In this document: positions 24,040 through 55,074 of the stretch, one piece after another
How positions within the stretch are numbered: the first letter of the stretch is position 1
Layout: each line of letters opens with the position of its first letter
NCBI GenBank assembly: GCA_028714495.1
Contig: JAQTMH010000002.1
Coordinates: 163,714 to 227,713 of the forward strand
Source: Patescibacteria group bacterium
GTDB lineage: Bacteria > Patescibacteriota > Patescibacteriia > JAHIZJ01
Reading direction: 5' to 3'
DNA: 64,000 bases
Notes under the pieces: model-generated
What the model was told of the DNA's origin: nothing
Seen by the model: the letters and a program-made list of their open reading frames with translations, nothing else
Databases searched by the model: none
Position numbers and translations under genes: made by a program

Positions 24040-26592
24040 CTACATCTTGGAAGCCGCGCCAAGATTATTATCGGCTTGGGATGTCGGCGAGCCTAAACGG
24101 CTGCGCTCGATAATTTCCGCCTCGACCGCACGGCGCTCGCGGCCGTATTTGGTACGACATAGTTCCTTAATTTTCTGAGATAGCTCTTTATTGCCCGGCT
24201 GGGGCGGGAAGGGCTGGAAATTGAAAGCTCGGGAAGACTGATTGTCTATCAAAAGTCTAGCGTAGGCATTATATTTTTCGATATTAAGCACGTCGTATTC
24301 ATTAAACACCGGAGCGAACATCTTCGATACCATTTCAGCGTCCTCTACTCCAATCTTGAAGGCGACCACTGTGCCGGCATTGCCCAGGACCGCATCCCGG
24401 ATCTTCGCATCCTGACCTTGAACCAGCTGGCTGATGTATTGATGGGCAATAATCAGATTCAGGCGGTACTTCCTCGCCTCTGACAATATCGTAGCCACGC
24501 TGTCAGTCACGAAGTTTTGGAATTCGTCAATGTAGAGGTAGAAATCCGGCCGTTGATTTTGAGGCAGGCTGGCTCGCGATAAAGCCGCCATTTGGAGTTT
24601 TGAAACAATGATCAAACCAAGCAGCGAACTATTAACTTCGCCGGTCTTGCCTTTGGATAAATTAACCAGCAAAATTTTGCGGTTGTTCATTATGTCCTTG
24701 AAGTCAAAACCGGATTTTGATTGACCAATGATATTCCGCATCATTTCGTTTTCGACAAATCGGCCGACCTTCGAGATAAGATAACCCAACATTTCTGATT
24801 TATGAAAATCGGTAGTCTTGGCCATTTCCTTTTCCCAGAACGAGCGGACCACCGGATCGGTAACTTTGCTGAGTTTGAATTTTTGGTACTCGGGATCAGT
24901 GAACATCCGCGGAATTTCGACAATCGTGCCTGGCTTCTCCCGGTCAGCCATTAAAGTCAACATGACATTGCGCATATTATGTTCAAACATCGGTCCGATC
25001 ATCTCCGGCGGGAAAAGCTTATAAAAGATGGCAATCATCTCCTGGACCGTAAAATCGCGCTCCTCAGGACTGTCAGCCTCAAGCATATTCAGGCCGACTG
25101 GCCGTTCCATGTCAGAGGGGTTGAAAATTATCACGTCGTTTATCCGGCTTTCCGGAATATGGCCCAAGATGTCTTCAATCAAATCGCCGTGCGGGTCGAT
25201 AACGCAAACGCCTTCGCCGTTTTGAATGTCTTGAATCGCCATGTTGGACATCAGCACCGATTTGCCGACGCCCGATTTACCGATGATGTAAATGTGGCGT
25301 CGGCGGTCATCCGGCTTGATGCGCACCATTACCTTCTGTCCTCGGTAGAAGCTTTCGCCCAGGATCAGTCCCTCAGCCGGCAGATTCACGGGCGGCGCTG
25401 AACGCTTCGCCACAGCCCAGCGGATATTCGGCGTCTCGGTGTTTGATAAGGGTAGGTGGAATATGCTAGCCAGCTCCTCGGTATTAAGAATGAATTTGGC
25501 TCGGCTGCGGAAATAGCGATAGATGGAGTCCTTTATAAAACGGCTCTTGCGCAGAACCTTGACTCGACGGAATCTGTTGCCTGCTTCAGGTAAGCTGTAT
25601 TGCGAAAAAGTATTAATAATGTTTTCCATGAAAAGCTGCGCCCGGGAATCGTCCTGAGCCGACACGATCACTCGGATATTTGTCTCAAAGCCCAGTTTGT
25701 TTGCCTTTTCCCCAACCGCCTTGACCTTTTCCTCTTCCATCGGCGACATCCGATACATCCGTTCTCTATCAAACGATTTTTGGGCGTCGGCTTTTGATGA
25801 AAAAGCGGATTGCATAACGCCGCCCATGGCTCCGCCCACGCCGCCTGCCTTGCCTCTCCCCTTGATTATCCGGCGGCAGTATTCCTGCGCGCTAGACTGC
25901 CAATTCTTAGCCGCCGGCCGGATAAGGATCTGGATCGCCGCCCCCTCGGGCGCCTGGATCTTGCTCAGAACATTGGTTACGGCAAACATCGGATCGGTTT
26001 CCATCTTGAGATAGGTGCGGATCGGAAACATGTTCGGCTTGGTCAGCTTAAGATAGTTGCAGCGGATCACTCCTTGGGGCGAAAAAATATTGTAATCCTC
26101 CACCTCTTCAATTTCCGCGTCCGGGTATTGGGCGTGGATCAACTGTTCCACAAACTGTTGATATTTACGCGGCACGGCGAAATAAAAAGTAATAACGCCC
26201 TGAACCGCCACAATTTCAACCGCGATATGGTCCTGCCGGCCGAAAAGCAACCGGGAATAAAATTTCTGCTGGCGGACAATTCCTCCGAAATTGGAGTAAA
26301 GGTATTCGGCCACGGCCATCAGCTCTTTGATACCGCCCTGCGGCTTTTCCGATTTCTGGTCAAGCTCCAGATGTTCCTTAGGCACCGTCACCATCAGAAC
26401 AACCCGCTGAAAAGCCGCTGGTAATCTGTTGGCACTGATTAATACTTTTCGAATTATAAAAAAGGCGATGACAATCACCGCAACGGCTCCAAAGATCATG
26501 GCCAGCAATATAAAAAGATCGCTTACCGTCTCGGGTTCCGGTGTCGCTACATTTACCGTGGCTGGCAAAGTAACAAACATATCCAAAATCAT
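24040..26592 (-). CDS. TrwB/VirD4/TraD-like type IV coupling protein (T4CP) family ATPase with a TM anchor and a pre-ATPase extension of about 390 aa
   Basis: Walker A IIGKSGVGKSVLMS followed by VCVIDPHGDL (compare TrwB GKS...VDPNGD). Walker B YIDEFQNF, then ARKYRLNLIIAHQYISQL (the T4CP RK..Q motif). There is an N-terminal TM helix. Confidence 0.6.
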   Translation of the reverse strand: MILDMFVTLPATVNVATPEPETVSDLFILLAMIFGAVAVIVIAFFIIRKVLISANRLPAAFQRVVLMVTVPKEHLELDQKSEKPQGGIKELMAVAEYLYSNFGGIVRQQKFYSRLLFGRQDHIAVEIVAVQGVITFYFAVPRKYQQFVEQLIHAQYPDAEIEEVEDYNIFSPQGVIRCNYLKLTKPNMFPIRTYLKMETDPMFAVTNVLSKIQAPEGAAIQILIRPAAKNWQSSAQEYCRRIIKGRGKAGGVGGAMGGVMQSAFSSKADAQKSFDRERMYRMSPMEEEKVKAVGEKANKLGFETNIRVIVSAQDDSRAQLFMENIINTFSQYSLPEAGNRFRRVKVLRKSRFIKDSIYRYFRSRAKFILNTEELASIFHLPLSNTETPNIRWAVAKRSAPPVNLPAEGLILGESFYRGQKVMVRIKPDDRRRHIYIIGKSGVGKSVLMSNMAIQDIQNGEGVCVIDPHGDLIEDILGHIPESRINDVIIFNPSDMERPVGLNMLEADSPEERDFTVQEMIAIFYKLFPPEMIGPMFEHNMRNVMLTLMADREKPGTIVEIPRMFTDPEYQKFKLSKVTDPVVRSFWEKEMAKTTDFHKSEMLGYLISKVGRFVENEMMRNIIGQSKSGFDFKDIMNNRKILLVNLSKGKTGEVNSSLLGLIIVSKLQMAALSRASLPQNQRPDFYLYIDEFQNFVTDSVATILSEARKYRLNLIIAHQYISQLVQGQDAKIRDAVLGNAGTVVAFKIGVEDAEMVSKMFAPVFNEYDVLNIEKYNAYARLLIDNQSSRAFNFQPFPPQPGNKELSQKIKELCRTKYGRERRAVEAEIIERSRLGSPTSQADNNLGAASKM

Positions 26593-27122
26593 TACTCTTT
26601 TCGTTTCAAAGAGATTATTTTATCGGTTTTAATTTTTGCCTCCTGCTCGAGAAAAAATCTGTTGACGTGAGGGATAAACCTCAGCCATTTTTTAATCAGA
26701 TCAAGCACCTTCTTAATGTTGACCTTAGTGGCTTGAAGCAACAGTTCAATCTTAGTGGCTGTGCGCTCGCCTTCCTTTTTGAAACGCTCGCGGCTTTCAG
26801 CATCCAGGCTTTTGAATACTTCGATCAAGTCCTCGGCCATGATATTTTCAACCGCTTGAAGCGTCTCTGATTTAGCAGGCGCCGCTGAAGTCTGGACAGT
26901 TTTTGGCGGTGGCGCGGTACCTGGCTGTTCTTTGGTTTCTGTTTCACCCCTTTCCTCGATATCCGGTTTTTCGCGCTCGCGCTGGCCTTCTATTCCCTCT
27001 GGCGCTTTTTCAATCTCAACCGTCCGGCTCAAGGCAGTTTCTTGTTCCGGTTTTACCTCCCCAGCTTTTAAAACTGGATTAGGTTCAATTTTTTTCTCTT
27101 CTTCTATTGGAAACTGATTCAT
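26592..27122 (-). CDS. Hypothetical Glu/Lys-rich protein (disordered N-half, helical C-half)
   Basis: 176-aa ORF whose stop overlaps the start of the T4CP-like gene, so the two are probably translationally coupled. Confidence 0.4.
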   Translation of the reverse strand: MNQFPIEEEKKIEPNPVLKAGEVKPEQETALSRTVEIEKAPEGIEGQREREKPDIEERGETETKEQPGTAPPPKTVQTSAAPAKSETLQAVENIMAEDLIEVFKSLDAESRERFKKEGERTATKIELLLQATKVNIKKVLDLIKKWLRFIPHVNRFFLEQEAKIKTDKIISLKRKE

Positions 27123-27291: not shown

Positions 27292-27861
27292 ATGAAAGCT
27301 TCGTCGCTCTTTTTTGCTTGCATGGTCTGCGTCCTGGCTGGAACCATCTCCGGCTGCACTGTCATCCGGGGCGGACTCTACGTCGGGTTCAATCCGGTGG
27401 GGGCGATCTGCGGTAAAGTCCTGACCATCAAGGATGGTTCAGGCTACCGCTATCTGGGTGACGAGAAGATCAGCACCGATGGCAACACCACAACCTGGGC
27501 GATCTCACAGATTGCCACTTTGGACCGGGGCGTTCACTTCGGCATCAGACCGCGTACGCTGTACGGGATGTACATCTGGCGCGTGGAATGGCGTCAAGCA
27601 GATGGGGAATGGCATCGGATTCGATTCCAGAACTATCAAGCCAACCCCTACGAATTCACTGCGAATCGGAAAGCCATCGGGGCTTGCCAGATCGAGATGC
27701 GCATCATCTACCGGCTGGCAACTGCCACACCAGACTGCATCGACGGCACCGTGATCATCGGCTCCGATGAACCGGAGCACGATATCATTGTGGAGTCGGA
27801 TGTGGTTCACCACTATCTGATTCCAATCACGTTCTTATCGCGGTACTGCGATCTTCGCTGA
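27292..27861 (+). CDS. Secreted lipoprotein (hypothetical), higher GC than its surroundings
   Basis: Signal peptide with lipobox ...AGTISGC. The segment is GC-rich, which also produces many spurious overlapping ORFs in the track. It has its own promoter and terminator and sits on the plus strand among minus-strand genes. Confidence 0.55.
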   Translation: MKASSLFFACMVCVLAGTISGCTVIRGGLYVGFNPVGAICGKVLTIKDGSGYRYLGDEKISTDGNTTTWAISQIATLDRGVHFGIRPRTLYGMYIWRVEWRQADGEWHRIRFQNYQANPYEFTANRKAIGACQIEMRIIYRLATATPDCIDGTVIIGSDEPEHDIIVESDVVHHYLIPITFLSRYCDLR

Positions 27862-27947: not shown

Positions 27948-27976
27948 TTGCTATTTTTCAAAAAATGTGCTACAAT
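27948..27976 (+). promoter_or_regulatory. Sigma70-type promoter: TTGCTA, 17-nt spacer, TACAAT
   Basis: Located upstream of the CorA-like gene. The spacing is canonical. Confidence 0.4.
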
Positions 27977-28029
27977 ATAGACATGGAGTAAAACTCTACT
28001 CCAAATCAAAAACAAAAGAAAAACAAACA

Positions 28030-28959
28030 ATGAACGTCAAAACTCTCCAAGTCAAAGACCTGCGTTGGGTTAATGTCGTCAAGCCAACTAACGAAGAAAT
28101 CGAATACCTGCGGAAAAATTTTTCATTTCACCCGCTTGATTTAAACGATTGCCTCTCTTCCCCAGCCCAACGTCCGAATCTGGACAAATACACGGATTAC
28201 ATGTTTATGATCCTCCTCTTCCCGGTTTTCGATCGGAAAACCCGCGAGATTAAACCATCAGAGGTGGATTTTTTTATCGGCAAAGATTATCTGGTGACTG
28301 TTCATCAAGACAATCTGCCGCCTCTAATCGATCTATTCGAGCTTTGTTCAGCCAATGAACAGGCTAAGGATAAATACCTCCAAGAGGGGGTGGAGAAGCT
28401 TCTCTTTACTATTCTTAATTCCCTCTTCCTCTATTGCTACCCGATGCTCGACCATGTCAGTATGGATATTGCCCAGCTTGAGAATAAAATATTTTCTGGC
28501 AATGAAAAGAAGACGGTCCGAGAGATAACGGTTATTCGTCGAAACATCACCAGTTTCCGGCGAATCATGCAGACGCATAAAAATGTCCTGAAAAAGCTGA
28601 CTCGCAGCTACGACAGCAGCGTCTTCAAACTCAACGGCTTAAAACTATATTTCGAACAGCTGATTGAAGATTCAAAAGACATCTGGGATACGCTGCAGGG
28701 ATTTAAAGAAGGGATTGAAACGCTCCAGCAAACCAACGAGTCCTTAATTTCTTTCCGGATAAATGATATCATTAAAACGCTGACCATAATTTCCGCGCTG
28801 GTCCTGCCAGTCTACGTCACGGCGTCAATTTTCGGGCTGATGAAGGGTTATTTCCCGGTCCTGGGCGAAACACATAATTTCTGGCTGCCCCTGGCCCTCT
28901 GTTTCGGCTCAGCCCTCAGTATGTACTGGTTCATGAAAAAAAAGAACATGTTGAAATAA
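28030..28959 (+). CDS. CorA/Mrs2-family-like divalent cation channel with a divergent GMN motif
   Basis: A soluble N-domain is followed by two C-terminal TM helices. The loop reads ASIFGLMKGYFP where CorA has YGMNF. Start chosen at the ATG at 28030. The ORF track begins at 27967, but that stretch overlaps the promoter and terminator. Confidence 0.55.
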   Translation: MNVKTLQVKDLRWVNVVKPTNEEIEYLRKNFSFHPLDLNDCLSSPAQRPNLDKYTDYMFMILLFPVFDRKTREIKPSEVDFFIGKDYLVTVHQDNLPPLIDLFELCSANEQAKDKYLQEGVEKLLFTILNSLFLYCYPMLDHVSMDIAQLENKIFSGNEKKTVREITVIRRNITSFRRIMQTHKNVLKKLTRSYDSSVFKLNGLKLYFEQLIEDSKDIWDTLQGFKEGIETLQQTNESLISFRINDIIKTLTIISALVLPVYVTASIFGLMKGYFPVLGETHNFWLPLALCFGSALSMYWFMKKKNMLK

Positions 28960-28962
28960 ACA

Positions 28963-29967
28963 ATGGATTATCTACTTTACTTCGCGATTATAATTTCCTT
29001 GATTTTTCTGGCCGCTTGGTTTAACCGAGGCCGCGGTTTTAATTTATCACGGGGCAAAACTCCCCTCCTAAATCTCTATGCCCGCGATCTGACTCAGCTC
29101 GCCCTCGAGGACAAGCTTGATCCGGTAATCGGCCGCAAGCATGAAATTAGCCGAGTAATCCAAATCCTCTCCCGCCGGACAAAAAACAATCCGGTTTTAA
29201 TCGGCGAATCCGGCGTGGGCAAAACCGCCATTGTCGAGGAACTGGCCGCTGAAGTCGCGAAAAACAACGTCCCTGGACCGCTGAAGAACAAACGGGTTCT
29301 CCAGCTCGACTTATCCGGCTTGGTTGCCGGAACAAAATACCGCGGCGAGTTTGAAAAGCGGCTTAAGGGCATCATGGACGAAATTGTAACGGCTCAACGA
29401 AACATTATCCTCTTTATTGACGAACTTCATACCCTAGCCGAAGCCGGCGAAGCCACTGGCGCGATTAACGCGGCCGATATCCTGAAACCGGCCTTGGCCC
29501 GGGGCGATCTCCAGGTTGTTGGCGCTTCGACTGACAGAGATTACAAAAAATACATTGAACACGATCAGACGCTAGAGCGGCGCTTCCAGTCCGTCTATGT
29601 CGAAGAGGCTACGCCTGAACAAACCCTGGAAATCTTAAAAGGCATTCGCAGCCGCTACGAGCAGCATCACCAGGTCGGCATCACCAACGAAGCGATTGAT
29701 GAAGCTGTTGAACTGGCCAAAACCGCCCTGCCCAAACGCACCTTCCCCGATAAGGCCATCGATATAGTTGACGAAGCCGCCGCCAAAGTCAGGCTCGACG
29801 CCATCAGCAACCCAGACAAATACAAAGGCGGAATTTATCCTCAAGTTACCAAAGACGATGTCCGCGAAGTGGTGGCTGAATGGGAAGACGATGCTGAGGC
29901 CGTGCACCGCCACGAAGCAAGCGCTTCCGCCCAAACCAATCCGACGGGCCCTACCGAACCGAGTTAA
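28963..29967 (+). CDS. Membrane-anchored Clp/Hsp100-type AAA+ ATPase containing only the D1 (NBD1) module
   Basis: N-terminal TM helix, then ClpA/B/C D1 blocks: [40 protein letters not shown], Walker [11 protein letters not shown], sensor [23 protein letters not shown]. There is no middle domain and no NBD2. The start lies 4 nt after the CorA-like stop. Confidence 0.6.
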
Positions 29968-30040
29968 GCTTTTTGAAACAAATTTGTGCTTTTATATGGC
30001 ACTTTTTTTATTGCCTAATTAATGCTAAACTAAAGGGCGT

Positions 30041-31417
30041 ATGCTTCAACTTTTCAATACCCTGTCGCGCGAAAAAGAGATTTTTAAACCCCAGCGAAAA
30101 GATTGGGTTGGTTTGTATACCTGCGGCCTGACTGTCTATAACTACGCCCACATCGGCAATTTGAGAACCTACCTATTTGAAGATATCCTGAAAAGGGTTT
30201 TGCTGCTCAATGGCTACCAGGTCAAGCACGTGATGAATATTACCGATGTCGGCCATTTAACCTCTGACGCTGATGAAGGCGAAGACAAGATGGAACTGGG
30301 CGCGGAGCGTGAACATAAGACCGCGGCCGAGATCGCCAAATACTACACCAAGGCTTTCCAACAGGATTTGAAAGACCTCAATATTCTCAAACCGTCAATC
30401 TGGGCAAAAGCCACCGCGCATATTGCGGAGCAAATTGCCTTAATCAAAAAACTAGAGCAGAAAGGCTTCATTTACAAAACTAGCGACGGCGTCTATTTTG
30501 ATACCTCGAAATATCCTGATTACGGCAAAATGGCTAGACTCGACTTAAAAGGCTTGAAAGAAGGCGCGCGCGTTGCTAAAAATTCCGAGAAGCGGAATCC
30601 GACTGACTTTGCCCTCTGGAAATTCTCGCCCAAAGACAAAAAACGCCAAATGGAGTGGCCTTCGCCCTGGGGCAAGGGTTTTCCGGGTTGGCACATCGAG
30701 TGTTCGGCCATGAGCATGAAATACCTGGGCGATACCCTGGATTTGCACGCCGGCGGAATTGATCATATTCCGGTCCATCACACCAACGAAATCGCCCAGT
30801 CTGAAGCCGCCACTGGCAAGCAGTTTGTCCGCTACTGGCTGCATGGGGATTTTTTGGTTCTCAACGAGGAACGAATGGGCAAGTCAAAAGGCAACTTTAT
30901 CACCCTAAAAACTCTAAAGGAAAAAGGTCTTAACCCGCTCGCCTATCGGTACTTCACTCTACAAGCTCACTACCGCGCTAAGCTTAATTTTTCCTGGGAT
31001 GCTCTCTCTGGCGCCCAAGCCGCTCTCGAGAAATTATCCGAACGGGTGCGTGAACTCCCGGCCCCAAAAGGCAAATGCGAGAAATACGAAACTAAGTTTC
31101 TCGAAGCCATAAATGACGACTTAAATACTCCCCAAGCCCTAGCCGTCGTCTGGGATTTGCTCAAGTCGGATTGCCCGGATTCGGCTAAGCGCGCGGCTCT
31201 CAATCGTTTCGATAAAGTTCTAGGGCTCGGCCTAGGTGGCTTGAAGAAAAAGCGGGCGGCTTCCGTGCCTTCGGATATTCAAAAACTTATTGACCGTCGG
31301 GAAAAAGCTAGAAAAAAAAATGACTGGGCCGGAGCCGACGCTCTCCGCCAGGAAATCGAAAAAGCCGGCTTTGCCGTCGAGGACACTTCAAAAGGCCCAA
31401 AACTGAAAAAGAAATAG
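30041..31417 (+). CDS. cysS: Cysteinyl-tRNA synthetase
   Basis: HIGN (HIGH) motif, zinc-binding Cys residues, and KMGKSKGN (KMSKS). Confidence 0.9.
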
Positions 31418-35038: not shown

Positions 35039-36193
35039 TTATAGCTTAATAATCTGGCACTCCTTCATTTCTTTTTCGTACCGGACAAACTTGGTCAGCC
35101 GCAATATTCCGTAAACAACAAAAGCCAGAAACCGGGTAATCCAGCAGTAAACAAAACCGAAAATCTGCAAAAGGAAATAAACCGTCAAAGCCAAGATCGG
35201 CGGAATGAGATATTTAAACGGCTTGAAGAGATCGTCGAAATAAGCCTCAAGAGCTTTCTCCAAAACCGTTCCCATTTGATCATCGCCGTCGGCTTCGATA
35301 TTCAAAGCCTTGACCAGTTGTTCCCTGGCCTTGGCAATCTGCTGTCCAACCATCTGATCTTTGATATCCTGAAAAACCTTTTTGATGTATTCCGGGTCTT
35401 TCTTTACCTGTTCTTCAAAATCAGGCGGGATTGCCGCTTTCAGCTCATCAGGCGAAATACCCTGAAGTTCATTAGTCATGCCAGAGAGATCCAGGCCGAA
35501 AAATGAGCTCTGGTCTCCGCCTATCGGTAAATTCAATTCTGACTGTTCTTCGGCGGCTTCAACTTTTTGCGCTCCTTCGCTGCCTTGGGCCAGGAGCAAT
35601 AGAATAAATTCATCCAATGTCATTTTCGGGTTGTACCCGGGTACTTGCATGACCAAAATCTGATTGCCCGCGTTGGCCGTGAATTTTGACAGCACCTCGA
35701 CCGAATCAAGCCCCTCAGTACCCTTCGTGGTCATCGCTCCGTAAAAGCTGATGGAAATCGCCAGAAGCAGCGCGCTGATGCACAAGCCTAGGCCATTACG
35801 CAAAAATTTGACTATTGATGCCTTGATCCGCGCTCTTTTCTCCTCCCTAATCTTAAAGCCGAACTGCAGCAGCCCCAGGAACCAGATGCCGGCAGCCACT
35901 AAAGTGTATAGGCTATCTCCCAAAGCCACCAGAAGGGTCATCGGCAAAACCGCGCTAGTCAAAACCATAAACCACCTCTTCTGCTCAACCGCCGCTAAAA
36001 TCCCGAAAATCGCCAGAGCCAATAACAGAAAAAATAGGCTGGCGACAAAATTCCAAAGGGTGGTCATGGTCAGCGGTTTGAAAACGAACTGCATGCCACC
36101 GAATGTCTCGCCCAAAAACCACCAGCCGGCCAGGCTCGTTAAGATCAAAACCAGCCCTAAGCCGACTAATTTAATAATCTCCCTTTGTTTCAT
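35039..36193 (-). CDS. Polytopic membrane protein (hypothetical)
   Basis: 384 aa. N- and C-terminal TM helix clusters flank a hydrophilic central region. It lies between dnaJ and dnaK. Confidence 0.45.
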   Translation of the reverse strand: MKQREIIKLVGLGLVLILTSLAGWWFLGETFGGMQFVFKPLTMTTLWNFVASLFFLLLALAIFGILAAVEQKRWFMVLTSAVLPMTLLVALGDSLYTLVAAGIWFLGLLQFGFKIREEKRARIKASIVKFLRNGLGLCISALLLAISISFYGAMTTKGTEGLDSVEVLSKFTANAGNQILVMQVPGYNPKMTLDEFILLLLAQGSEGAQKVEAAEEQSELNLPIGGDQSSFFGLDLSGMTNELQGISPDELKAAIPPDFEEQVKKDPEYIKKVFQDIKDQMVGQQIAKAREQLVKALNIEADGDDQMGTVLEKALEAYFDDLFKPFKYLIPPILALTVYFLLQIFGFVYCWITRFLAFVVYGILRLTKFVRYEKEMKECQIIKL

Positions 36194-40727: not shown

Positions 40728-40754
40728 TTAGCACTCTTTATATCCGAGTGCTAA
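40728..40754. promoter_or_regulatory. CIRCE operator: TTAGCACTC, 9-nt spacer, GAGTGCTAA
   Basis: Perfect consensus CIRCE inverted repeat 10 nt upstream of the hrcA start codon. On the minus strand a TTGACA -35 lies at 40783-40788, with AT-rich -10 candidates between. Confidence 0.8.
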
Positions 40755-51098: not shown

Positions 51099-51428
51099 TT
51101 ATTTCTTCTTTTTTAAATGTAAGGGCAGGGCTTGCTGGCGGCCGAGAAGACTCCGAGCCGTCCGCCGGCCGAACGGTGTCAATTTCACCTCGCCAATAAA
51201 CCATTTTTGAGAGGTCCGCCGGCCAAAGCCGATAAGCAATTCCTTGTCGATCAATCGTTCCAGGCTTTTGGTAATAATATTCTGGATATCATCGATTTTG
51301 GGGTGCTTGGCCTGGCCATTGTAAAATTTAATGATGCCTGAACGAGGGTAGTTTTTCGAACGGCTGGCTGCTACTTCGCGCAAAATAAATTTTTGAAGCG
51401 GAGAGAGCTTCATTTTAGCCTTTATCAA
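51099..51428 (-). CDS. Small basic hypothetical protein (possible winged-helix DNA binding)
   Basis: 109-aa Lys/Arg-rich ORF that overlaps the aspS start by 14 nt. Confidence 0.35.
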   Translation of the reverse strand: MIKAKMKLSPLQKFILREVAASRSKNYPRSGIIKFYNGQAKHPKIDDIQNIITKSLERLIDKELLIGFGRRTSQKWFIGEVKLTPFGRRTARSLLGRQQALPLHLKKKK

Positions 51429-52827
51429 CTCTTAAGCCTAAATCACGGAGCTGGGCTGGAGTAACCTTGGTCGGTGAATCCATCATCGGATCCCGGCCTT
51501 CGCTCGTCAGAGGAAAAGCAATCACCTCTTTCAGGTTTTTTTCTCCCAGGATCGCCATTAGCAGGCGCTCAATGCCCGGGGCAATGCCGCCGTGGGGCGG
51601 GACACCGTATTGAAAAGCCGTGAGCAAATGCTTAAATTGTTTTTTCTGGTCCTTAGTAAAACCGATGATGTCAAAAACTTTCTCCTGGATCTCCGCCTGG
51701 TGGATCCGAATGCTCCCGCCGCCGACCTCAAATCCGTTTAACACCAAGTCGTGCTGGTAGGAATGTACTTTTTCAGGAGCGGTGTCCAAAAGCGGCAGAT
51801 CCTCTTCCTTGGGCGCCGTAAACATGTGATGTGAAGGCGCTAATTTATCCCCGGCCCCGTGGAAAAAATCTTCCTTTGTCTGTTTTGTGAAAAGCGGAAA
51901 ATCAACTATCCAGGCAAAGGCCAATTCGTCCTTGTTGTCCCGGTTCTTCCTCAAATCCGGCTTGTCAGTGCCGTACTTCTCCATTGCCTCGGCGTGCTTT
52001 AACCTTGGCCAAGGTTCCTGGCTGAGGCGCTTGTTTGGAAAAAGCTTTTTGACAAGAGCGGTGACCATTTCCTCGACCAGCTTCAAAATATCGTCTTGGC
52101 TGATAAAAGCCATCTCAATATCCAGTTGGTAAAATTCGCCAGGACTGCGGTCAGCTCGGGCATCTTCATCGCGAAAGCATGGAGCAATCTGAAAATACTT
52201 TTCAAAACCCGCCACCATCAAGAGCTGCTTGTACTGCTGGGGCGATTGGGGCAAGGCGAAAAACTTACCCTTTTGAAGCCGCGAGGGGACCAGATAATCC
52301 CGGGCTCCCTCGGGAGTTGATTTAGAAAGTATCGGCGTTTGAATTTCGGCAAATCCCCGGCCGTGCAGCCAATCGCGTAAAAACCACATCATTTCAGATC
52401 GTAAAATCAAATTTTGTCTCATTCTCTCGTGGCGCAGATCAAGGTAGCGGTATTTCAAACGCAGCTCCTCCGAAGCTTGCCGCGTCTCATTGTCAATCTC
52501 AAATGGCGGTGTAAATGATGGACATAATATCACTAGGTTTCTTGCAATAAGGTCGATTCGGCCAGTCGTCTGCTTTGGATTAATGTTTTTCCCAATACGC
52601 TCAACGACTTGTCCAGTTACCTGAATAACCGATTCCGGCTTAACACTCTTGGCTTTTGCAAATGGTTCCGCTTGATCATTTAAAAAAACAATCTGTAAAT
52701 GCCCGCTGATATCGCGCAAATTAATAAAAATAATCTGGCTGAGAATCCGTATTTTCTCAACCCAGCCAGCCACGGTAACGATCCGGCTTACAGATTTAAT
52801 TGTTTGAGAGGAAAGTATTCTCTGCAT
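51415..52827 (-). CDS. aspS: Aspartyl-tRNA synthetase, bacterial-type motifs but lacking the GAD insertion domain
   Basis: Class IIb. OB-fold N-domain, FQIAPCFRDEDARADRSPGEFYQLDIEMAF (bacterial AspRS motif 2), and GGGSIRIH...PPHGGIAPGIERLLM (motif 3). It is only 470 aa. Confidence 0.8.
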   Translation of the reverse strand: MQRILSSQTIKSVSRIVTVAGWVEKIRILSQIIFINLRDISGHLQIVFLNDQAEPFAKAKSVKPESVIQVTGQVVERIGKNINPKQTTGRIDLIARNLVILCPSFTPPFEIDNETRQASEELRLKYRYLDLRHERMRQNLILRSEMMWFLRDWLHGRGFAEIQTPILSKSTPEGARDYLVPSRLQKGKFFALPQSPQQYKQLLMVAGFEKYFQIAPCFRDEDARADRSPGEFYQLDIEMAFISQDDILKLVEEMVTALVKKLFPNKRLSQEPWPRLKHAEAMEKYGTDKPDLRKNRDNKDELAFAWIVDFPLFTKQTKEDFFHGAGDKLAPSHHMFTAPKEEDLPLLDTAPEKVHSYQHDLVLNGFEVGGGSIRIHQAEIQEKVFDIIGFTKDQKKQFKHLLTAFQYGVPPHGGIAPGIERLLMAILGEKNLKEVIAFPLTSEGRDPMMDSPTKVTPAQLRDLGLRVDKG

Positions 52828-52838
52828 ATAAATGAATC

Positions 52839-54131
52839 CTAGGGCTTTAAACGATTAATGAGGCGCGGGAATGGAATAGTCTCGCGGATATGCTCCAGCC
52901 CGCAAATCCAGCGCACCAGCCGCTCCAAACCCAGGCCGAAACCCGAGTGCGGGAATGAACCATAGCGCCGTAAATCAAGATACCATTCGAAATCCTTGCG
53001 CGGGAGTTTGAATTCCTTGAGCCGCTTTTCCAAAAGCTTCAGATCATCTATTCTCTCTGACCCGCCGATAATTTCACCAAAGCCTTCTGGCGCCAGCAAA
53101 TCATCGCCCAGCGAGAGTTCGGGATCAGCCGGGTCAGGCTTCATGTAAAAGGCCTTGATCTTTGTCGGGAAGTGGGTGATGAAAACCGGCTTGTCAAATT
53201 GTTTCGAGAGAACCGTTTCTTCGTCGCCCCCAAAGTCATCTCCCCTTTTCATTTTTAAACCCGCCTTGATTAATCTGGTAACAGCCTCGTCATAGGTAAG
53301 GCGCGGGAAAGGAACTGCTACTTTTTCCAAAATCTTGGTATCTCGCTCAAGCAGTTTTAATTCCTCCCGCCTTTCAATCAAGATGTTTTGAACAACCTGG
53401 CTGACAAGCTCTTCCTGGATTTTCAAATTCTCTTCGAAATCCACAAAAGCCGCTTCGGCATCAAGCATCCAAAACTCAGTTAGGTGGCGCCGGGTCTTTG
53501 ATTTTTCCGCGCGGAAGGTCGGACCAAAATCATACACCCGGCCCAAAGCCGCGGCCGTGGCCTCGATATAGAGCTGGCCGGTCTGGGCCAGATAAGCTTT
53601 TGTGTCAAAATAGTCGGTGCTAAAAAGGGTGGTCGTGCCTTCGCAGGAAGTCGGGGTGAGAACTGGCGAATCAGTCAGGACAAATCCCCGTTCGCGAAAA
53701 AACTTCCTAAGTTGCCAAACCACTTCATCCCGCACTTTTAAAATCGCGGCCTGACGCGCTGAGCGCAGCCAAAGATGTCTATTGTCCATCAAAAACTCAG
53801 GGCCGTGCTCTTTCTTGGCAATCGGATATTCCTCAGCCAGCTGAATAATCTTCAGATCCTTTACCTCAAGTTCAAAACCGTAGGCAGAACGCTTATCCTC
53901 GTGGACCGTGCCAAAAAGCTCGATTGAGCTTTCCATGGTCAGTTTCCCGCAAGCCTGCCAAGTCTTTGAATCAACCTCTTTTTTGCTGATTACAGCCTGA
54001 ATCCGGCCGCTGCCATCCCGAAATTGGAGGAAATAAATACTGCCCGAAGAACGGACATTAAAAACCCAGCCCTTTAGGCTGACCTCTTTTTCTGGATACT
54101 TTGATACCTCGGAAAGCTGAATTAATGGCAT
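52839..54131 (-). CDS. asnS: Asparaginyl-tRNA synthetase (class IIb)
   Basis: FRAEKSKTRRHLTEFWMLDAEAAF closely matches AsnRS motif 2. The C-terminus reads GSFPHSGFGLGLERLV. Confidence 0.7.
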   Translation of the reverse strand: MPLIQLSEVSKYPEKEVSLKGWVFNVRSSGSIYFLQFRDGSGRIQAVISKKEVDSKTWQACGKLTMESSIELFGTVHEDKRSAYGFELEVKDLKIIQLAEEYPIAKKEHGPEFLMDNRHLWLRSARQAAILKVRDEVVWQLRKFFRERGFVLTDSPVLTPTSCEGTTTLFSTDYFDTKAYLAQTGQLYIEATAAALGRVYDFGPTFRAEKSKTRRHLTEFWMLDAEAAFVDFEENLKIQEELVSQVVQNILIERREELKLLERDTKILEKVAVPFPRLTYDEAVTRLIKAGLKMKRGDDFGGDEETVLSKQFDKPVFITHFPTKIKAFYMKPDPADPELSLGDDLLAPEGFGEIIGGSERIDDLKLLEKRLKEFKLPRKDFEWYLDLRRYGSFPHSGFGLGLERLVRWICGLEHIRETIPFPRLINRLKP

Positions 54132-54471: not shown

Positions 54472-55074
54472 CTACAAATCAACACCCCTGGGATTTTCTT
54501 TATTCTTTTTTATTCGCGCAATCAAAACGCAAAAAATTACTACAATAACGGCTCCTAACAAGTTCCACATCAAGTCATCAGCCGTATCAAACAAATCCGT
54601 TATCCGGTGGGTGGGAAAAAGCTGATCTCCGATGTATTCTGATATTTCATATATAACCACTATCAGCATTGTTAGGCTGATAGACACCATATTAGTCAAC
54701 CAGCTCGGCAGTCGCAGTAAAGATTTTTTATGGAATTCGCTTAAGACCGCCCAGAACATGGCTGTCGGAGCCATTGAACCTACGAAATGAGCCAGCTTGT
54801 CCCACCAAAGTATCCGCCCAAAAAGATGCTGGAAATTGGCCAACCCATCGATCCAAATCCCGGCCGCCACCAGCCAAGCGATTATCCAAGGCAAGGCAAT
54901 TCCGCGGCGGCGCAGAGAAAAAAATATTATAAGAAAAATCCCCCCGCCAACAATGTTTGTTACCGATAAAGCCACTTGTCGCGGCCAGGTGTCGTATTTC
55001 GTCGCCAGCTCGATTACCAACAACACGACAAGTGAGACAAAAGCCATCGCCGTAAAAACGTCATTTCTCCGCAT
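54472..55074 (-). CDS. Polytopic membrane protein (hypothetical)
   Basis: 200 aa with 5-6 TM helices. Confidence 0.45.
   Translation of the reverse strand: MRRNDVFTAMAFVSLVVLLVIELATKYDTWPRQVALSVTNIVGGGIFLIIFFSLRRRGIALPWIIAWLVAAGIWIDGLANFQHLFGRILWWDKLAHFVGSMAPTAMFWAVLSEFHKKSLLRLPSWLTNMVSISLTMLIVVIYEISEYIGDQLFPTHRITDLFDTADDLMWNLLGAVIVVIFCVLIARIKKNKENPRGVDL

What the first reader, a model, noticed from the sequence alone, without database searches (positions are those of the whole stretch)
28030..29967. A CorA-like channel with a non-canonical GMN motif, translationally coupled to a membrane-tethered Clp ATPase that has only the D1 ring
Gene 1 has the CorA/Mrs2 architecture, a soluble N-domain plus two C-terminal TM helices. 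Its pore-loop signature is FGLMKGY instead of the conserved YGMNF, which may indicate altered ion selectivity or a non-channel role. Gene 2 starts 4 nt later. It is a Clp/Hsp100 D1 module with Walker A and B, sensor and arginine-finger blocks conserved. Its N-terminal TM helix replaces the Clp_N domain, and it has no middle domain and no NBD2. A membrane-anchored single-ring Clp-type AAA+ ATPase paired with a CorA-like protein is an unusual module. The pair has its own promoter (27948-27976).
Basis: partly seen in the sequence, partly recalled or inferred. Interest (0 to 1): 0.6.

Follow-up and report, generated by a model that had tools for sequence, protein, structure and literature searches.

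The report
Membrane-anchored single-ring Clp beside altered CorA
A Patescibacteria chromosome carries a CorA-type channel gene that has lost its magnesium-selectivity signature, followed by a gene for a membrane-tethered, one-ring Clp ATPase; both proteins are real, conserved and uncharacterised variants of known families, but they are probably neighbours by descent, not a dedicated two-part machine.

Summary
Gene 1 (28030-28959) is a full-length CorA-family protein with GLM in place of GMN. Gene 2 (28963-29967) has a TM helix plus a complete ClpC/ClpB-type D1 AAA+ module. It has no Clp_N, M-domain or D2, and no D2 is encoded elsewhere in the window.

Gene 2 is not a one-off or a fragment. It belongs to a Patescibacteria-wide family of about 300-350 aa with the same architecture and invariant Walker A/B, pore-loop Tyr and Arg-finger residues. 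Most likely it is a ClpP-independent, membrane-tethered hexameric threading motor.

The GLM state is a stable remodelling. Loop and TM2 are 27% and 34% identical to GMN sisters but 75% and 83% conserved within the GLM subclade, while the cytosolic domain is unchanged.

The "module" reading is only partly supported. All CorA-D1 adjacencies fall in one CorA clade, inside a conserved housekeeping block (T4CP-like ... CorA-(small TM ORF)-D1-CysS ... DnaJ). Only 9 of 53 informative CorA loci are followed by D1, and 3 of 8 independently sampled D1 loci lack CorA. GMN loss also occurs without D1. A co-evolution test failed its negative controls. Elsewhere, D1's most faithful neighbours are two small membrane-protein families that are absent here.

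Verdict: a new variant of known kinds, of moderate interest.

The parts
27948..27976 (+). Sigma-70-type promoter-like site: TTGCTA, 17-nt spacer, TACAAT, with TG before the -10 hexamer
   Evidence: 9 of 12 consensus matches. This is a consensus match only. It lies inside the alternative GTG-27967 ORF, which supports ATG 28030 as the true start.
27977..28029 (+). A-rich 5' leader of about 53 nt, with a short hairpin-forming inverted repeat at 27984-28003
   Evidence: No Rfam family matches it, M-box included, at E <= 1. No CIRCE element is present.
28030..28959 (+). Gene 1: a CorA-family 2-TM protein of 309 aa with a conserved cytosolic domain and a remodelled outer pore
   Evidence: Pfam PF01544 161 bits, full length. 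TmCorA E = 1e-23. AF2 pLDDT 87.4. Foldseek top hits are TmCorA and MjCorA, TM-score 0.69-0.84 normalised to the query.
28834..28842 (+). GLM codons at the position of the canonical GMN signature (residues 269-271). The wider altered loop FGLMKGYFPVLG spans 28831-28866.
   Evidence: Gap-free alignment to TmCorA G312-M313-N314 and to FGMN relatives. The Glu of the MPEL loop is replaced by Val. Tm T305 corresponds to Tyr262.
28882..28941 (+). TM2 of gene 1 (residues 285-304), remodelled together with the loop
   Evidence: TM2 plus tail is 34% identical to GMN sisters but 83% identical within the GLM subclade. AF2 models a helix at 285-304.
28960..28962 (+). 3-nt spacer (ACA) between the gene 1 stop and the gene 2 start. 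The two ORFs are in the same frame.
   Evidence: Relatives have spacers of 1-6 nt and are not in frame with each other.
28963..29967 (+). Gene 2: a membrane-anchored, D1-only Clp/Hsp100 AAA+ ATPase of 334 aa
   Evidence: ClpB TIGR03346 positions 155-435 only. ClpC D1 at 312 bits. AF2 pLDDT 90.8. Foldseek finds ClpC/ClpC1/ClpB D1 at 2-3 A rmsd over about 275 columns. The 119 closest clusters other than the window's own protein are 59-81% identical; all but one (a 535-aa protein with Clp_N) are 289-350 aa.
28969..29025 (+). N-terminal transmembrane anchor (residues 3-21), followed by a basic juxtamembrane linker
   Evidence: Kyte-Doolittle maximum 2.06. 107 of the 120 listed clusters (the window's own protein included) exceed 1.6. 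AF2 helix at 3-21, low-confidence linker at 25-30. The positive charges lie after the helix, which implies the AAA+ domain is cytoplasmic (inference).
29203..29226 (+). Walker A, GESGVGKT (residues 81-88)
   Evidence: G81, G84, V85, G86, K87 and T88 are invariant in 42 family members.
29326..29355 (+). D1 pore loop [10 protein letters not shown] (residues 122-131), including the substrate-gripping Tyr126
   Evidence: Invariant across the family. Aligns with the ClpC/ClpB D1 pore loop.
29413..29424 (+). Walker B, FIDE (residues 151-154)
   Evidence: Invariant.
29578..29583 (+). Arg-finger pair R206-R207, within LERRFQ
   Evidence: Invariant. These residues act in trans, which implies a ring oligomer (established AAA+ knowledge).
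29986..30009 (+). Intrinsic-terminator-like hairpin GTGCTTTTATATGGCAC followed by a T-run, between gene 2 and cysS
30041..31417 (+). cysS (cysteine--tRNA ligase). A context gene, and the conserved downstream neighbour.
   Evidence: TIGR00435 at 453 bits, above its cutoff. Syntenic in relatives.

Best explanation
The region is a two-gene transcription unit in the core chromosome of a Patescibacteria (CPR) bacterium.

Gene 2 belongs to a conserved Patescibacteria family that derives from a ClpC/ClpB-type class-I Hsp100. The family keeps only the first AAA+ module. The M-domain is cleanly absent, the protein ends at the D1/D2 boundary, and a single N-terminal membrane anchor stands where the Clp_N domain would be.

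Walker A/B, the pore-loop tyrosine and the trans-acting arginine pair are all invariant. I therefore infer that gene 2 assembles into a ring, probably a hexamer helped by membrane tethering, on the cytoplasmic face of the membrane. There it would thread or extract polypeptides using ATP.

It has no D2, so it lacks the D2 module that carries the ClpP-docking loop in ClpA and ClpC. It also has no N-domain and no M-domain. It should therefore work without ClpP, MecA-type adaptors or DnaK coupling. In logic it resembles Msp1/ATAD1 or the AAA ring of FtsH, but it is not homologous to them in this respect.

Gene 1 is a CorA-family protein with its cytosolic domain under normal constraint. Its outer pore was rebuilt in a short burst and then kept under purifying selection: end of TM1, the GMN/MPEL loop and TM2. 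The changes include GMN to GLM, loss of the loop's acidic residues, gain of a Lys, and Tyr at the Tm T305 position. I infer that it is no longer a canonical Mg2+/Co2+-selective channel. It either conducts something else or has a non-conducting role.

The two genes are co-transcribed here. Their adjacency, however, is an inherited feature of one clade inside a conserved housekeeping block. It is not good evidence for a dedicated partnership.

Shown here: the identities, architectures, conservation, phylogenetic distribution and operon layout. Inferred: ring assembly, unfoldase or extractase activity, topology, and loss of Mg2+ selectivity.
For: Family and architecture:
- Searches show D1 only, closest to ClpC/ClpB.
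- The C-terminal [14 protein letters not shown] matches ClpC's post-M-domain EVTVDDIAMVVSSW.
- No D2 or Clp_N is found in the window or in 100 related loci, 861 kb in total.
- Of the 119 closest clusters other than the window's own protein, all but one are 289-350 aa.
- 107 of the 120 listed clusters have an N-terminal TM segment.
- Catalytic, pore-loop and Arg-finger residues are invariant at 56-78% identity.
- The AF2 model is confident, pLDDT 90.8.

CorA:
- establish the family and the fold.
- Searches show GLM at the GMN position.
- One search gives region-wise identity for within-GLM, within-GMN and GLM-versus-GMN: cytosolic 74/77/72%, loop 75/84/27%, TM2 83/52/34%.

Distribution:
- One search shows a single D1-adjacent clade, with GMN kept in the window's nearest sisters (L002, L004, L005).
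- only 9 of 53 informative CorA loci have D1 downstream.
- D1 occurs with and without CorA, always in the same macro-synteny.

Operon.

Context: the surroundings are core chromosome. There is no PADLOC defence-system hit for gene 1, and only weak generic AAA hits for gene 2.
Against: - No biochemical evidence exists for ring formation by a lone D1. From general knowledge, isolated ClpB D1 oligomerises poorly, because D2 is the main oligomerisation module in ClpB.
- A separately encoded partner elsewhere in the genome (a D2-like protein, FtsH or another) cannot be excluded from 64 kb.
- GMN variants are common across Patescibacteria CorAs. Some of them may still conduct Mg2+, so loss of selectivity is an inference.
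- Tight 1-6 nt CorA-D1 spacing has persisted down to about 40% CorA identity. CorA is also more often degenerate or truncated next to D1: GMN is missing in 11 of 17 D1-adjacent CorAs in the tree, and also in L099, L100 and L101. That compares with 13 of 44 loci without adjacent D1. Both points leave room for a real functional link.
Confidence: 0.6

Rival explanations
1. Dedicated CorA-D1 membrane module. The GMN-less CorA-like pentamer would be the client, receptor or gate-partner of the membrane-anchored D1 ring. For example, the AAA+ ring could remodel, open or extract it, or use its cytoplasmic funnel as a docking platform.
For: - Co-transcription with 1-6 nt gaps is kept from the window's clade down to CorAs about 40% identical (L070, L078).
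- The CorA next to D1 is disproportionately non-canonical: GLM, SAG, AIN, SIN, AAR, AAK, GLD, GLE, SIK, GLG, ASG, and a 232-aa one-TM stump in L101.
- The GLM loop and TM2 are under purifying selection after remodelling.
Against: - The adjacency arose once, in a single clade, so the correlation rests on few independent events.
- GMN is also lost or changed in 13 of 44 loci without adjacent D1.
- D1 occurs without CorA in L010, L014 and L098, and CorA without D1 in 44 of 53 loci.
- In most D1 lineages a small TM ORF lies between the two genes, and cysS can overlap D1.
- The partial-Mantel co-evolution signal (r = 0.40) is no higher than the negative controls at 0.48-0.64.
- A 5-fold CorA against a 6-fold AAA+ ring is not prohibitive, but it gives no support.
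Confidence: 0.2
2. Split or hetero-oligomeric Clp. The D1-only protein would work together with a separately encoded second AAA+ module or protease, such as a D2-only protein or FtsH, to rebuild a two-tier machine.
For: In class-I Hsp100 proteins, D2 usually contributes most of the ATPase power and, in ClpB, oligomerisation (general knowledge). The Arg fingers are conserved, so some ring must form.
Against: No D2-type or Clp_N-type sequence is found in the window or within about 5-8 kb of D1 in any of the 100 loci, 861 kb in total. A split gene pair is normally adjacent. The architecture has been stable across a deep family without a linked partner.
Confidence: 0.1
3. Gene 1 is still an ordinary Mg2+/Co2+ channel, and GLM is a tolerated variant. 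Gene 2 is an unrelated housekeeping chaperone. The finding would then be nothing more than conserved gene order.
For: The cytosolic domain and the hydrophobic gate positions are conserved. The family tolerates many variants at this position. The region is housekeeping synteny.
Against: In GLM the Asn that contacts hydrated Mg2+ is replaced by Met. The loop Glu is lost and a Lys is introduced at the pore mouth. The whole loop and TM2 were replaced in a burst and then fixed, which looks like a change of function and not neutral tolerance. That GMN mutations abolish CorA transport is established knowledge and was not tested here.
Confidence: 0.08
4. Gene 2 is a decaying remnant (pseudogene) of a full-length clpC or clpB.
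For: It is less than half the length of ClpB or ClpC. One NCBI record with an intact copy has no gene on record at that position.
Against: There are over a hundred distinct clusters of the same length and architecture, with all catalytic residues invariant. The domain boundaries are clean: the M-domain is excised and the protein ends at the D1/D2 junction. A TM anchor has been gained. cysS follows after 73 nt, and no D2 remnant exists in any frame.
Confidence: 0.02

Closest known systems
ClpC / ClpB (class-I Clp/Hsp100 unfoldases and disaggregases), D1 module
   Same: 52-57% identical to the D1 of B. subtilis and S. aureus ClpC, M. tuberculosis ClpC1 and E. coli ClpB. The fold superposes at 2-3 A. 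It has the same Walker A/B, the KYRGEFE pore loop, the RR arginine-finger pair and the AAA_lid_9 small domain.
   Different: It has no Clp_N domain, which is replaced by a TM anchor. It has no M-domain coiled coil and no D2 ring. It therefore lacks the D2 module that carries the ClpP-docking loop in ClpA and ClpC, the MecA and McsB adaptor surfaces, and the DnaK-binding motif. It scores far below every NCBIfam equivalog cutoff, for example 372 against 1232 bits for ClpB.
Msp1/ATAD1 and the AAA ring of FtsH (membrane-anchored single-ring AAA+ motors)
   Same: The architecture is the same: N-terminal membrane anchor, short linker, and one cytoplasmic AAA+ ring with a pore-loop aromatic residue. 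This suggests an analogous extraction or unfolding role at the membrane (inference).
   Different: It is not homologous beyond the general AAA+ fold. Gene 2 belongs to the Clp D1 clade, not the classical AAA clade. It has no M41 protease domain (FtsH). No Pfam, NCBIfam or PDB match to these families ranks above the Clp hits.
CorA (2-TM-GMN Mg2+/Co2+ channels; T. maritima and M. jannaschii CorA structures)
   Same: Full-length Pfam match. The same fold: an alpha/beta N-domain, a long stalk helix continuing into TM1, and TM2. Conserved positions include Tm N288, L294 and P303.
   Different: GMN is replaced by GLM and MPEL by FPVL. Tm T305 is Tyr and Tm D253 is Gln. The protein is about 40 residues shorter at the N-terminus. 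It scores below the TIGR00383 equivalog cutoff, 160 against 200.75.
CRISPR type III-associated CorA effectors (activated by SAM-AMP; PMC10600005)
   Same: A precedent for CorA-family proteins recruited to a role other than Mg2+ uptake.
   Different: No cas genes, NrN or SAM-lyase genes lie nearby. The context is housekeeping. Gene 1 has no PADLOC hit.

Membership tests
CorA / 2-TM-GMN family | Full-length match to the family profile (Pfam PF01544) above the gathering score | tested here: met
   161 bits against a cutoff of 27; residues 9-304 match profile positions 2-292 of 292.
CorA / 2-TM-GMN family | CorA fold: alpha/beta N-domain, long stalk helix into TM1, short outer loop, TM2 | tested here: met
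   AF2 pLDDT 87.4, with helix 205-270, loop 271-284 and helix 285-304. Foldseek top hits are TmCorA and MjCorA, TM-score 0.69-0.84 normalised to the query.
CorA / 2-TM-GMN family | Gly-Met-Asn signature at the end of TM1 | tested here: not met
   GLM at residues 269-271, aligned without gaps to TmCorA G312-M313-N314 and to FGMN relatives.
CorA / 2-TM-GMN family | Acidic MPEL-type periplasmic loop after GMN | tested here: not met
   FPVL in place of MPEL. Gly is at the Tm E316 position, Val at the Tm E320 position, and Lys at the Tm F315 position.
CorA / 2-TM-GMN family | NCBIfam equivalog (TIGR00383 corA) trusted cutoff | tested here: not met
   160.1 bits against 200.75.
CorA / 2-TM-GMN family | Pentameric assembly and Mg2+/Co2+ transport | not testable with these tools
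   Needs complementation or flux assays, and structure determination or multimer modelling.
Class-I Clp/Hsp100 (ClpA/B/C) | D1 AAA+ module with Walker A/B, pore-loop Tyr, Arg finger and AAA_lid_9 | tested here: met
Class-I Clp/Hsp100 (ClpA/B/C) | Second AAA+ module (D2) in the same polypeptide | tested here: not met
   The protein ends at the D1/D2 junction. No D2 is found in the window or in the related loci.
Class-I Clp/Hsp100 (ClpA/B/C) | N-terminal Clp_N (Clp repeat) domain | tested here: not met
   No PF02861 hit. Residues 1-35 are a TM helix plus linker.
Class-I Clp/Hsp100 (ClpB/ClpC) | M-domain coiled coil inserted in the D1 small domain | tested here: not met
   Query residues 284-307 align with ClpC 459-483, directly after query 288 = ClpC 414. 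The 415-458 insert is absent.
Class-I Clp/Hsp100 (ClpA/ClpC) | ClpP-docking loop (carried by D2) | tested here: not met
   No D2 is present, so the module that carries the loop in ClpA and ClpC is absent. That the loop lies in D2 is established knowledge.
Patescibacteria TM-anchored D1-only Clp family (defined here) | About 300-350 aa; N-terminal TM helix; basic linker; complete D1; no N-domain, M-domain or D2 | tested here: met
   The window protein is 56-78% identical to the 41 other members of alignment A2, and 59-81% identical to the listed clusters. Architecture is shared by 107 of the 120 listed clusters.
Msp1/ATAD1-type membrane extractase (works-like comparison only) | Homology to the classical AAA clade, and demonstrated extraction of membrane proteins | tested here: not met
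   The best matches are all Clp D1. Activity is not testable here. Only the anchor-plus-single-ring architecture is shared.
CRISPR-associated CorA effector | Genomic association with type III CRISPR-Cas and with SAM-AMP synthesis or degradation genes | tested here: not met
   The neighbours are housekeeping genes. Gene 1 has no PADLOC hit.

The most novel reading that the evidence does not exclude
The GMN-less CorA-like pentamer and the membrane-anchored D1 ring would be parts of one previously unknown CPR membrane machine. In other lineages it would also include the two small single-pass proteins that flank D1, and possibly the divergently transcribed T4CP-like ATPase. In this machine an Hsp100-type motor would act on or through a CorA-derived funnel, for example ATP-driven gating, extraction or translocation of a non-Mg2+ substrate.
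Probability: 0.12. Interest if true: 0.8.

Novelty: new variant of a known kind. Interest (0 to 1): 0.48.

Why it matters
(1) Gene 2 represents a natural, widespread Hsp100 derivative that has been reduced to a single D1 ring and tethered to the membrane. If active, it would show that a class-I D1 ring can work alone, without M-domain control, D2 power or ClpP. That speaks to the long-running question of how labour is divided between the two Hsp100 rings. It would also identify a membrane-proximal proteostasis factor in the reduced genomes of Patescibacteria.

(2) The CorA result shows that the GMN signature, usually treated as universal, is repeatedly replaced in this phylum. In the window's lineage the replacement is a selected remodelling of the whole outer pore. 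These proteins are therefore probably mis-annotated as magnesium transporters. They are good candidates for a new selectivity or a non-channel role.

(3) In practical terms, the automatic names 'magnesium transporter CorA' and 'ATP-dependent Clp protease ATP-binding subunit' both overstate what is known for these proteins.

Tried and rejected
- **Raw association of D1 adjacency with GMN loss.** It looked strong: 9 of 11 D1-adjacent loci lack GMN, against 13 of 44 without adjacent D1. The CorA tree shows that all adjacent cases belong to one clade. Most of the signal is therefore shared ancestry plus a family-wide laxity at GMN. I kept it only as weak support for the module rival.

- **Mirror-tree / partial-Mantel co-evolution test.** This compared the CorA membrane part with the D1 TM anchor and linker. 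It gave r = 0.33-0.40, with few or no permutations reaching that value. Negative controls using unrelated fast-evolving positions gave 0.48-0.64. I rejected it as evidence of contact.

- **Heat-shock regulon membership.** The only CIRCE element in the window is the perfect one at 40728-40754, in front of hrcA. None lies upstream of gene 1.

- **Mg2+ riboswitch or another known leader RNA.** Rfam gives no hit at E <= 1.

- **Defence-system reading.** Gene 1 has no PADLOC hit. Gene 2 has only weak generic AAA hits.

- **Split Clp with an adjacent D2.** None is found in 861 kb of related loci plus the window.

- **Stop-codon read-through fusion.** The genes are in frame here (TAA ACA ATG) but not in relatives L002 and L004. 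A fusion would also place the AAA+ domain on the wrong side of the membrane. I rejected this as chance.

- **Shine-Dalgarno absence as evidence for translational coupling.** It is uninformative, since only 7 of 47 genes have one.

- **Exhaustive 50%-cluster search.** It added little. The family collapses into a few clusters, and full-length Clp D1 domains are nearly as similar.

- **Literature searches.** They found no description of this D1-only family in the library searched. That is absence of evidence only, because many journals are not covered.
Full report
**What is in the sequence**

Two + strand ORFs occupy 28030-28959 (309 aa) and 28963-29967 (334 aa). They are separated by TAA-ACA-ATG. 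A sigma-70-like site lies at 27948-27976: TTGCTA, 17 nt, TACAAT, with an upstream TG. A hairpin with a T-run lies at 29986-30009, ahead of cysS at 30041-31417. The pair therefore looks like a self-contained bicistronic unit.

Only 7 of 47 genes in the window have a Shine-Dalgarno match. Its absence before gene 2 says nothing about translational coupling. Co-transcription is well supported, while coupling remains an inference.

**Gene 1**

Gene 1 matches Pfam CorA over its whole length (161 bits). It falls below the NCBIfam corA equivalog cutoff, 160 against 200.75.

- Against T. maritima CorA (E = 1e-23) the alignment is gap-free across TM1 and the loop. Tm Y-G-M-N-F-E-Y-M-P-E-L pairs with F-G-L-M-K-G-Y-F-P-V-L.
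- The Asn of GMN is therefore Met, and both loop glutamates are lost. A Lys appears at the pore mouth, and pore-lining T305 corresponds to Tyr262.
- Hydrophobic gate positions and Tm N288 are kept.
- AF2 gives a confident CorA fold (pLDDT 87.4). Foldseek returns TmCorA and MjCorA as top hits.

**Gene 2**

Gene 2 matches only the D1 part of ClpB, ClpV, ClpA and ClpG models and ClpC residues 155-414 (312 bits). Its C-terminal [14 protein letters not shown] aligns with ClpC 459-483, the segment that follows the M-domain. The M-domain is therefore cleanly missing, and the protein stops at the D1/D2 junction.

AF2 (pLDDT 90.8, pTM 0.83) shows four elements:

- a helix at residues 3-21;
- a low-confidence linker at 25-30;
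- a complete AAA+ large domain plus lid;
- a terminal helix at 297-324.

Foldseek superposes the model on ClpC, ClpC1 and ClpB D1 at 2-3 A over about 275 columns. No D2-like or Clp_N-like sequence is found anywhere in the window, or in 100 related loci totalling 861 kb.

**Gene 2 belongs to a family**

Besides the window's own protein, the 119 best clusters in the 5.8-billion-protein search are 59-81% identical. All but one (a 535-aa protein with Clp_N) are 289-350 aa. Where named, they are labelled Patescibacteria, Kerfeldbacteria or Nomurabacteria.

- 107 of the 120 listed clusters have a clear N-terminal hydrophobic helix followed by basic residues. Most of the rest are borderline or N-terminally truncated.
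- In a 42-member alignment the following are invariant: Walker A, the [10 protein letters not shown] pore loop, Walker B, T190, R206/R207 and the PDKAID region.
- At 50% clustering the family collapses into a few representatives, and full-length Clp D1 domains are 55-60% identical to it. Architecture, not sequence drift, sets the family apart.
- Literature searches found no description of the family.

**Is the pair a module?**

Close relatives (L002-L006) are fully syntenic, which cannot show a specific link.

D1-centred sampling of eight more distant lineages gave three patterns:

- CorA, then a small TM ORF, then D1, in L012, L016, L099 and L100;
- a 232-aa CorA stump with a single TM in L101;
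- no CorA at all in L010, L014 and L098.

CorA-centred sampling used 80 metagenome loci. Of 53 loci with enough downstream sequence, only 9 have D1 downstream. In 7 loci cysS follows CorA directly.

The constant picture is one housekeeping block:

- a T4CP-like gene and a 176-aa gene on one strand;
- then, on the other strand, a lipoprotein-like gene, CorA, a small 'up' ORF, D1, a small 'dn' ORF, CysS and Dus;
- then the dnaJ/dnaK region.

In L012 and L022, D1 overlaps cysS by 4 nt. The 'up' and 'dn' small ORFs are two genuine families of single-pass membrane proteins. They flank D1 even where CorA is absent, and they have no counterpart in the window.

**GMN status**

The raw table looked striking: GMN is missing in 9 of 11 D1-adjacent CorAs, against 13 of 44 non-adjacent ones. 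A neighbour-joining tree of 80 distinct CorAs then shows that all D1-adjacent proteins form one clade.

- Inside that clade GMN is kept in L012, L021, L022, L002, L004 and L005.
- It was lost at least three times: GLM in the window's subclade, SAG in L019, and a diversified A/S/G-x-x subclade.
- Outside the clade it is also changed many times, to AMK, AMR, QIN, SMN, TMN, GMK, GVN, AIR, GMS, SMS, SMR and SMA.

The association is therefore mostly shared ancestry plus family-wide laxity at this position. The excess next to D1 is suggestive at best.

**Decay or new state?**

I compared the GLM group (P0121-P0123) with its GMN sisters (P0124-P0128) region by region.

| Region | Within GLM | Within GMN | GLM vs GMN |
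|---|---|---|---|
| Cytosolic domain (1-244) | 74% | 77% | 72% |
| Loop (268-284) | 75% | 84% | 27% |
| TM2 plus tail (285-309) | 83% | 52% | 34% |

The outer pore was rebuilt in a burst and has since been held under purifying selection. This argues for a change of function, not erosion. The SAG group shows the same pattern independently.

**Co-evolution**

A partial-Mantel test compared the CorA membrane part with the D1 anchor and linker. It gave r = 0.33-0.40. Control pairs of unrelated fast-evolving positions gave 0.48-0.64. There is no specific signal.

**Context**

The window is core chromosome. It carries glycosyltransferases, metK, dnaX, glycolysis genes, aminoacyl-tRNA synthetase genes and a type IIA P-type ATPase. 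It also has hrcA-grpE-dnaK-(a 384-aa gene of unknown function)-dnaJ, with a perfect CIRCE element at 40728-40754. No CIRCE, no Rfam element and no defence-system signature is associated with the pair.

**Conclusion**

Gene 2 is best explained as a ClpP-independent threading motor. It is tethered to the membrane, has a single ring, and belongs to an uncharacterised Patescibacteria family.

Gene 1 is a CorA derivative whose selectivity region has been replaced and fixed.

The two genes are co-transcribed here, but comparative evidence favours inherited neighbourhood over a dedicated partnership. I give the module reading about 0.2.

Both proteins are new variants of known kinds, and both are attractive targets for experiment.

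Noticed in passing
L010 5713-5952 and 7073-7258; L014 5694-5948 and 7170-7337; L016 5707-5994 and 7015-7179; L100 4743-4976 and 6106-6252; L099 4806-4994; L024 1866-2132; L079 2565-2717: In most D1-bearing lineages the D1 gene is flanked by two small single-pass membrane ORFs. The upstream one is 50-95 aa, with a polar N-terminus followed by a TM segment. The downstream one is 48-61 aa and tail-anchored, with an LVEVMEGVTLSALL-type motif. Each type forms a homologous family (BLASTP E from 1e-4 to 1e-15). They accompany D1 even where CorA is absent. Neither has a counterpart in the window.
   Followed up: partly
window 24040-26592 (-) and 26592-27122 (-): An 850-aa T4SS coupling-protein-like ATPase (DUF8128 plus TrwB_AAD_bind/TraG-D_C) and a 176-aa partner that overlaps it by 1 nt are transcribed divergently from the CorA side. 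This trio is conserved in most CorA loci sampled, far more constantly than CorA-D1. It behaves as a core Patescibacteria gene, not a mobile element.
   Followed up: partly
L018-L097 (metagenome CorA loci); tree: Across Patescibacteria CorAs the 'universal' GMN signature is changed in roughly 30% of loci that have no D1 nearby. Variants seen are SMN, TMN, GVN, GMS, SMS, GMK, AMK, AMR, SMR, SMA, AIR and QIN. Many proteins annotated as 'magnesium transporter CorA' in this phylum may not be canonical Mg2+ channels.
   Followed up: partly
L101 4148-4846: Next to D1 sits a 232-aa CorA remnant. It keeps only the N-terminal cytosolic domain (homology to residues 1-132) plus one C-terminal TM helix, so it is a CorA-derived protein that cannot be a channel.
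   Followed up: partly
window 35039-36193 (-): A 384-aa ORF with no Pfam or NCBIfam match sits between dnaK and dnaJ in the hrcA-grpE-dnaK-x-dnaJ cluster. ORFs of similar size and without annotation hold the same position in relatives: 380 aa in L012, 355 aa in L014 and 394 aa in L016.
   Followed up: partly
window 40728-40754: A perfect CIRCE element (TTAGCACTC-N9-GAGTGCTAA) lies immediately upstream of hrcA. It is the only one in the window at up to 3 mismatches.
   Followed up: yes
L102 2934-3938 (NCBI GCA_028717285.1, JAQUOI010000016.1): This near-identical strain has an intact D1 ORF (3 nt differences, one change S63N). Even so, no gene is on record between CorA and CysS in that record. 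The short Clp may have been skipped or pseudogenised by the annotation pipeline there.
   Followed up: partly
window, all ORFs of at least 150 aa: Only 7 of 47 genes have a recognisable Shine-Dalgarno sequence; most start regions are A-rich. Genes 1 and 2 both start in the context AAACAATG.
   Followed up: yes
window 28957-28965: Gene 1 and gene 2 are in the same reading frame, separated only by TAA-ACA. This is not conserved in relatives, and a fusion would be topologically implausible, so it is probably chance.
   Followed up: partly
window 27292-27861 (+): A 189-aa ORF between the T4CP-like pair and CorA has a lipoprotein-like N-terminus (MKASSLFFACMVCVLAGTISGC). It also has the strongest Shine-Dalgarno match in the window (AGGAGG, -12.2 kcal/mol). 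It evolves fast: 25-45% identity in close relatives whose CorA is 65-76% identical.
   Followed up: no
window 55061-57751 (-): An 896-aa type IIA P-type cation ATPase. It is closest to PMR1/SERCA-type Ca2+ pumps (666 bits, below the cutoff) and matches MgtA-type models more weakly. It could matter for divalent-cation handling if the CorA here no longer carries Mg2+.
   Followed up: no
window 51415-52827 (-) and 52839-54131 (-): Two adjacent class-II aminoacyl-tRNA synthetase genes of the Asp/Lys/Asn type (tRNA-synt_2 plus an OB anticodon-binding domain).
   Followed up: no
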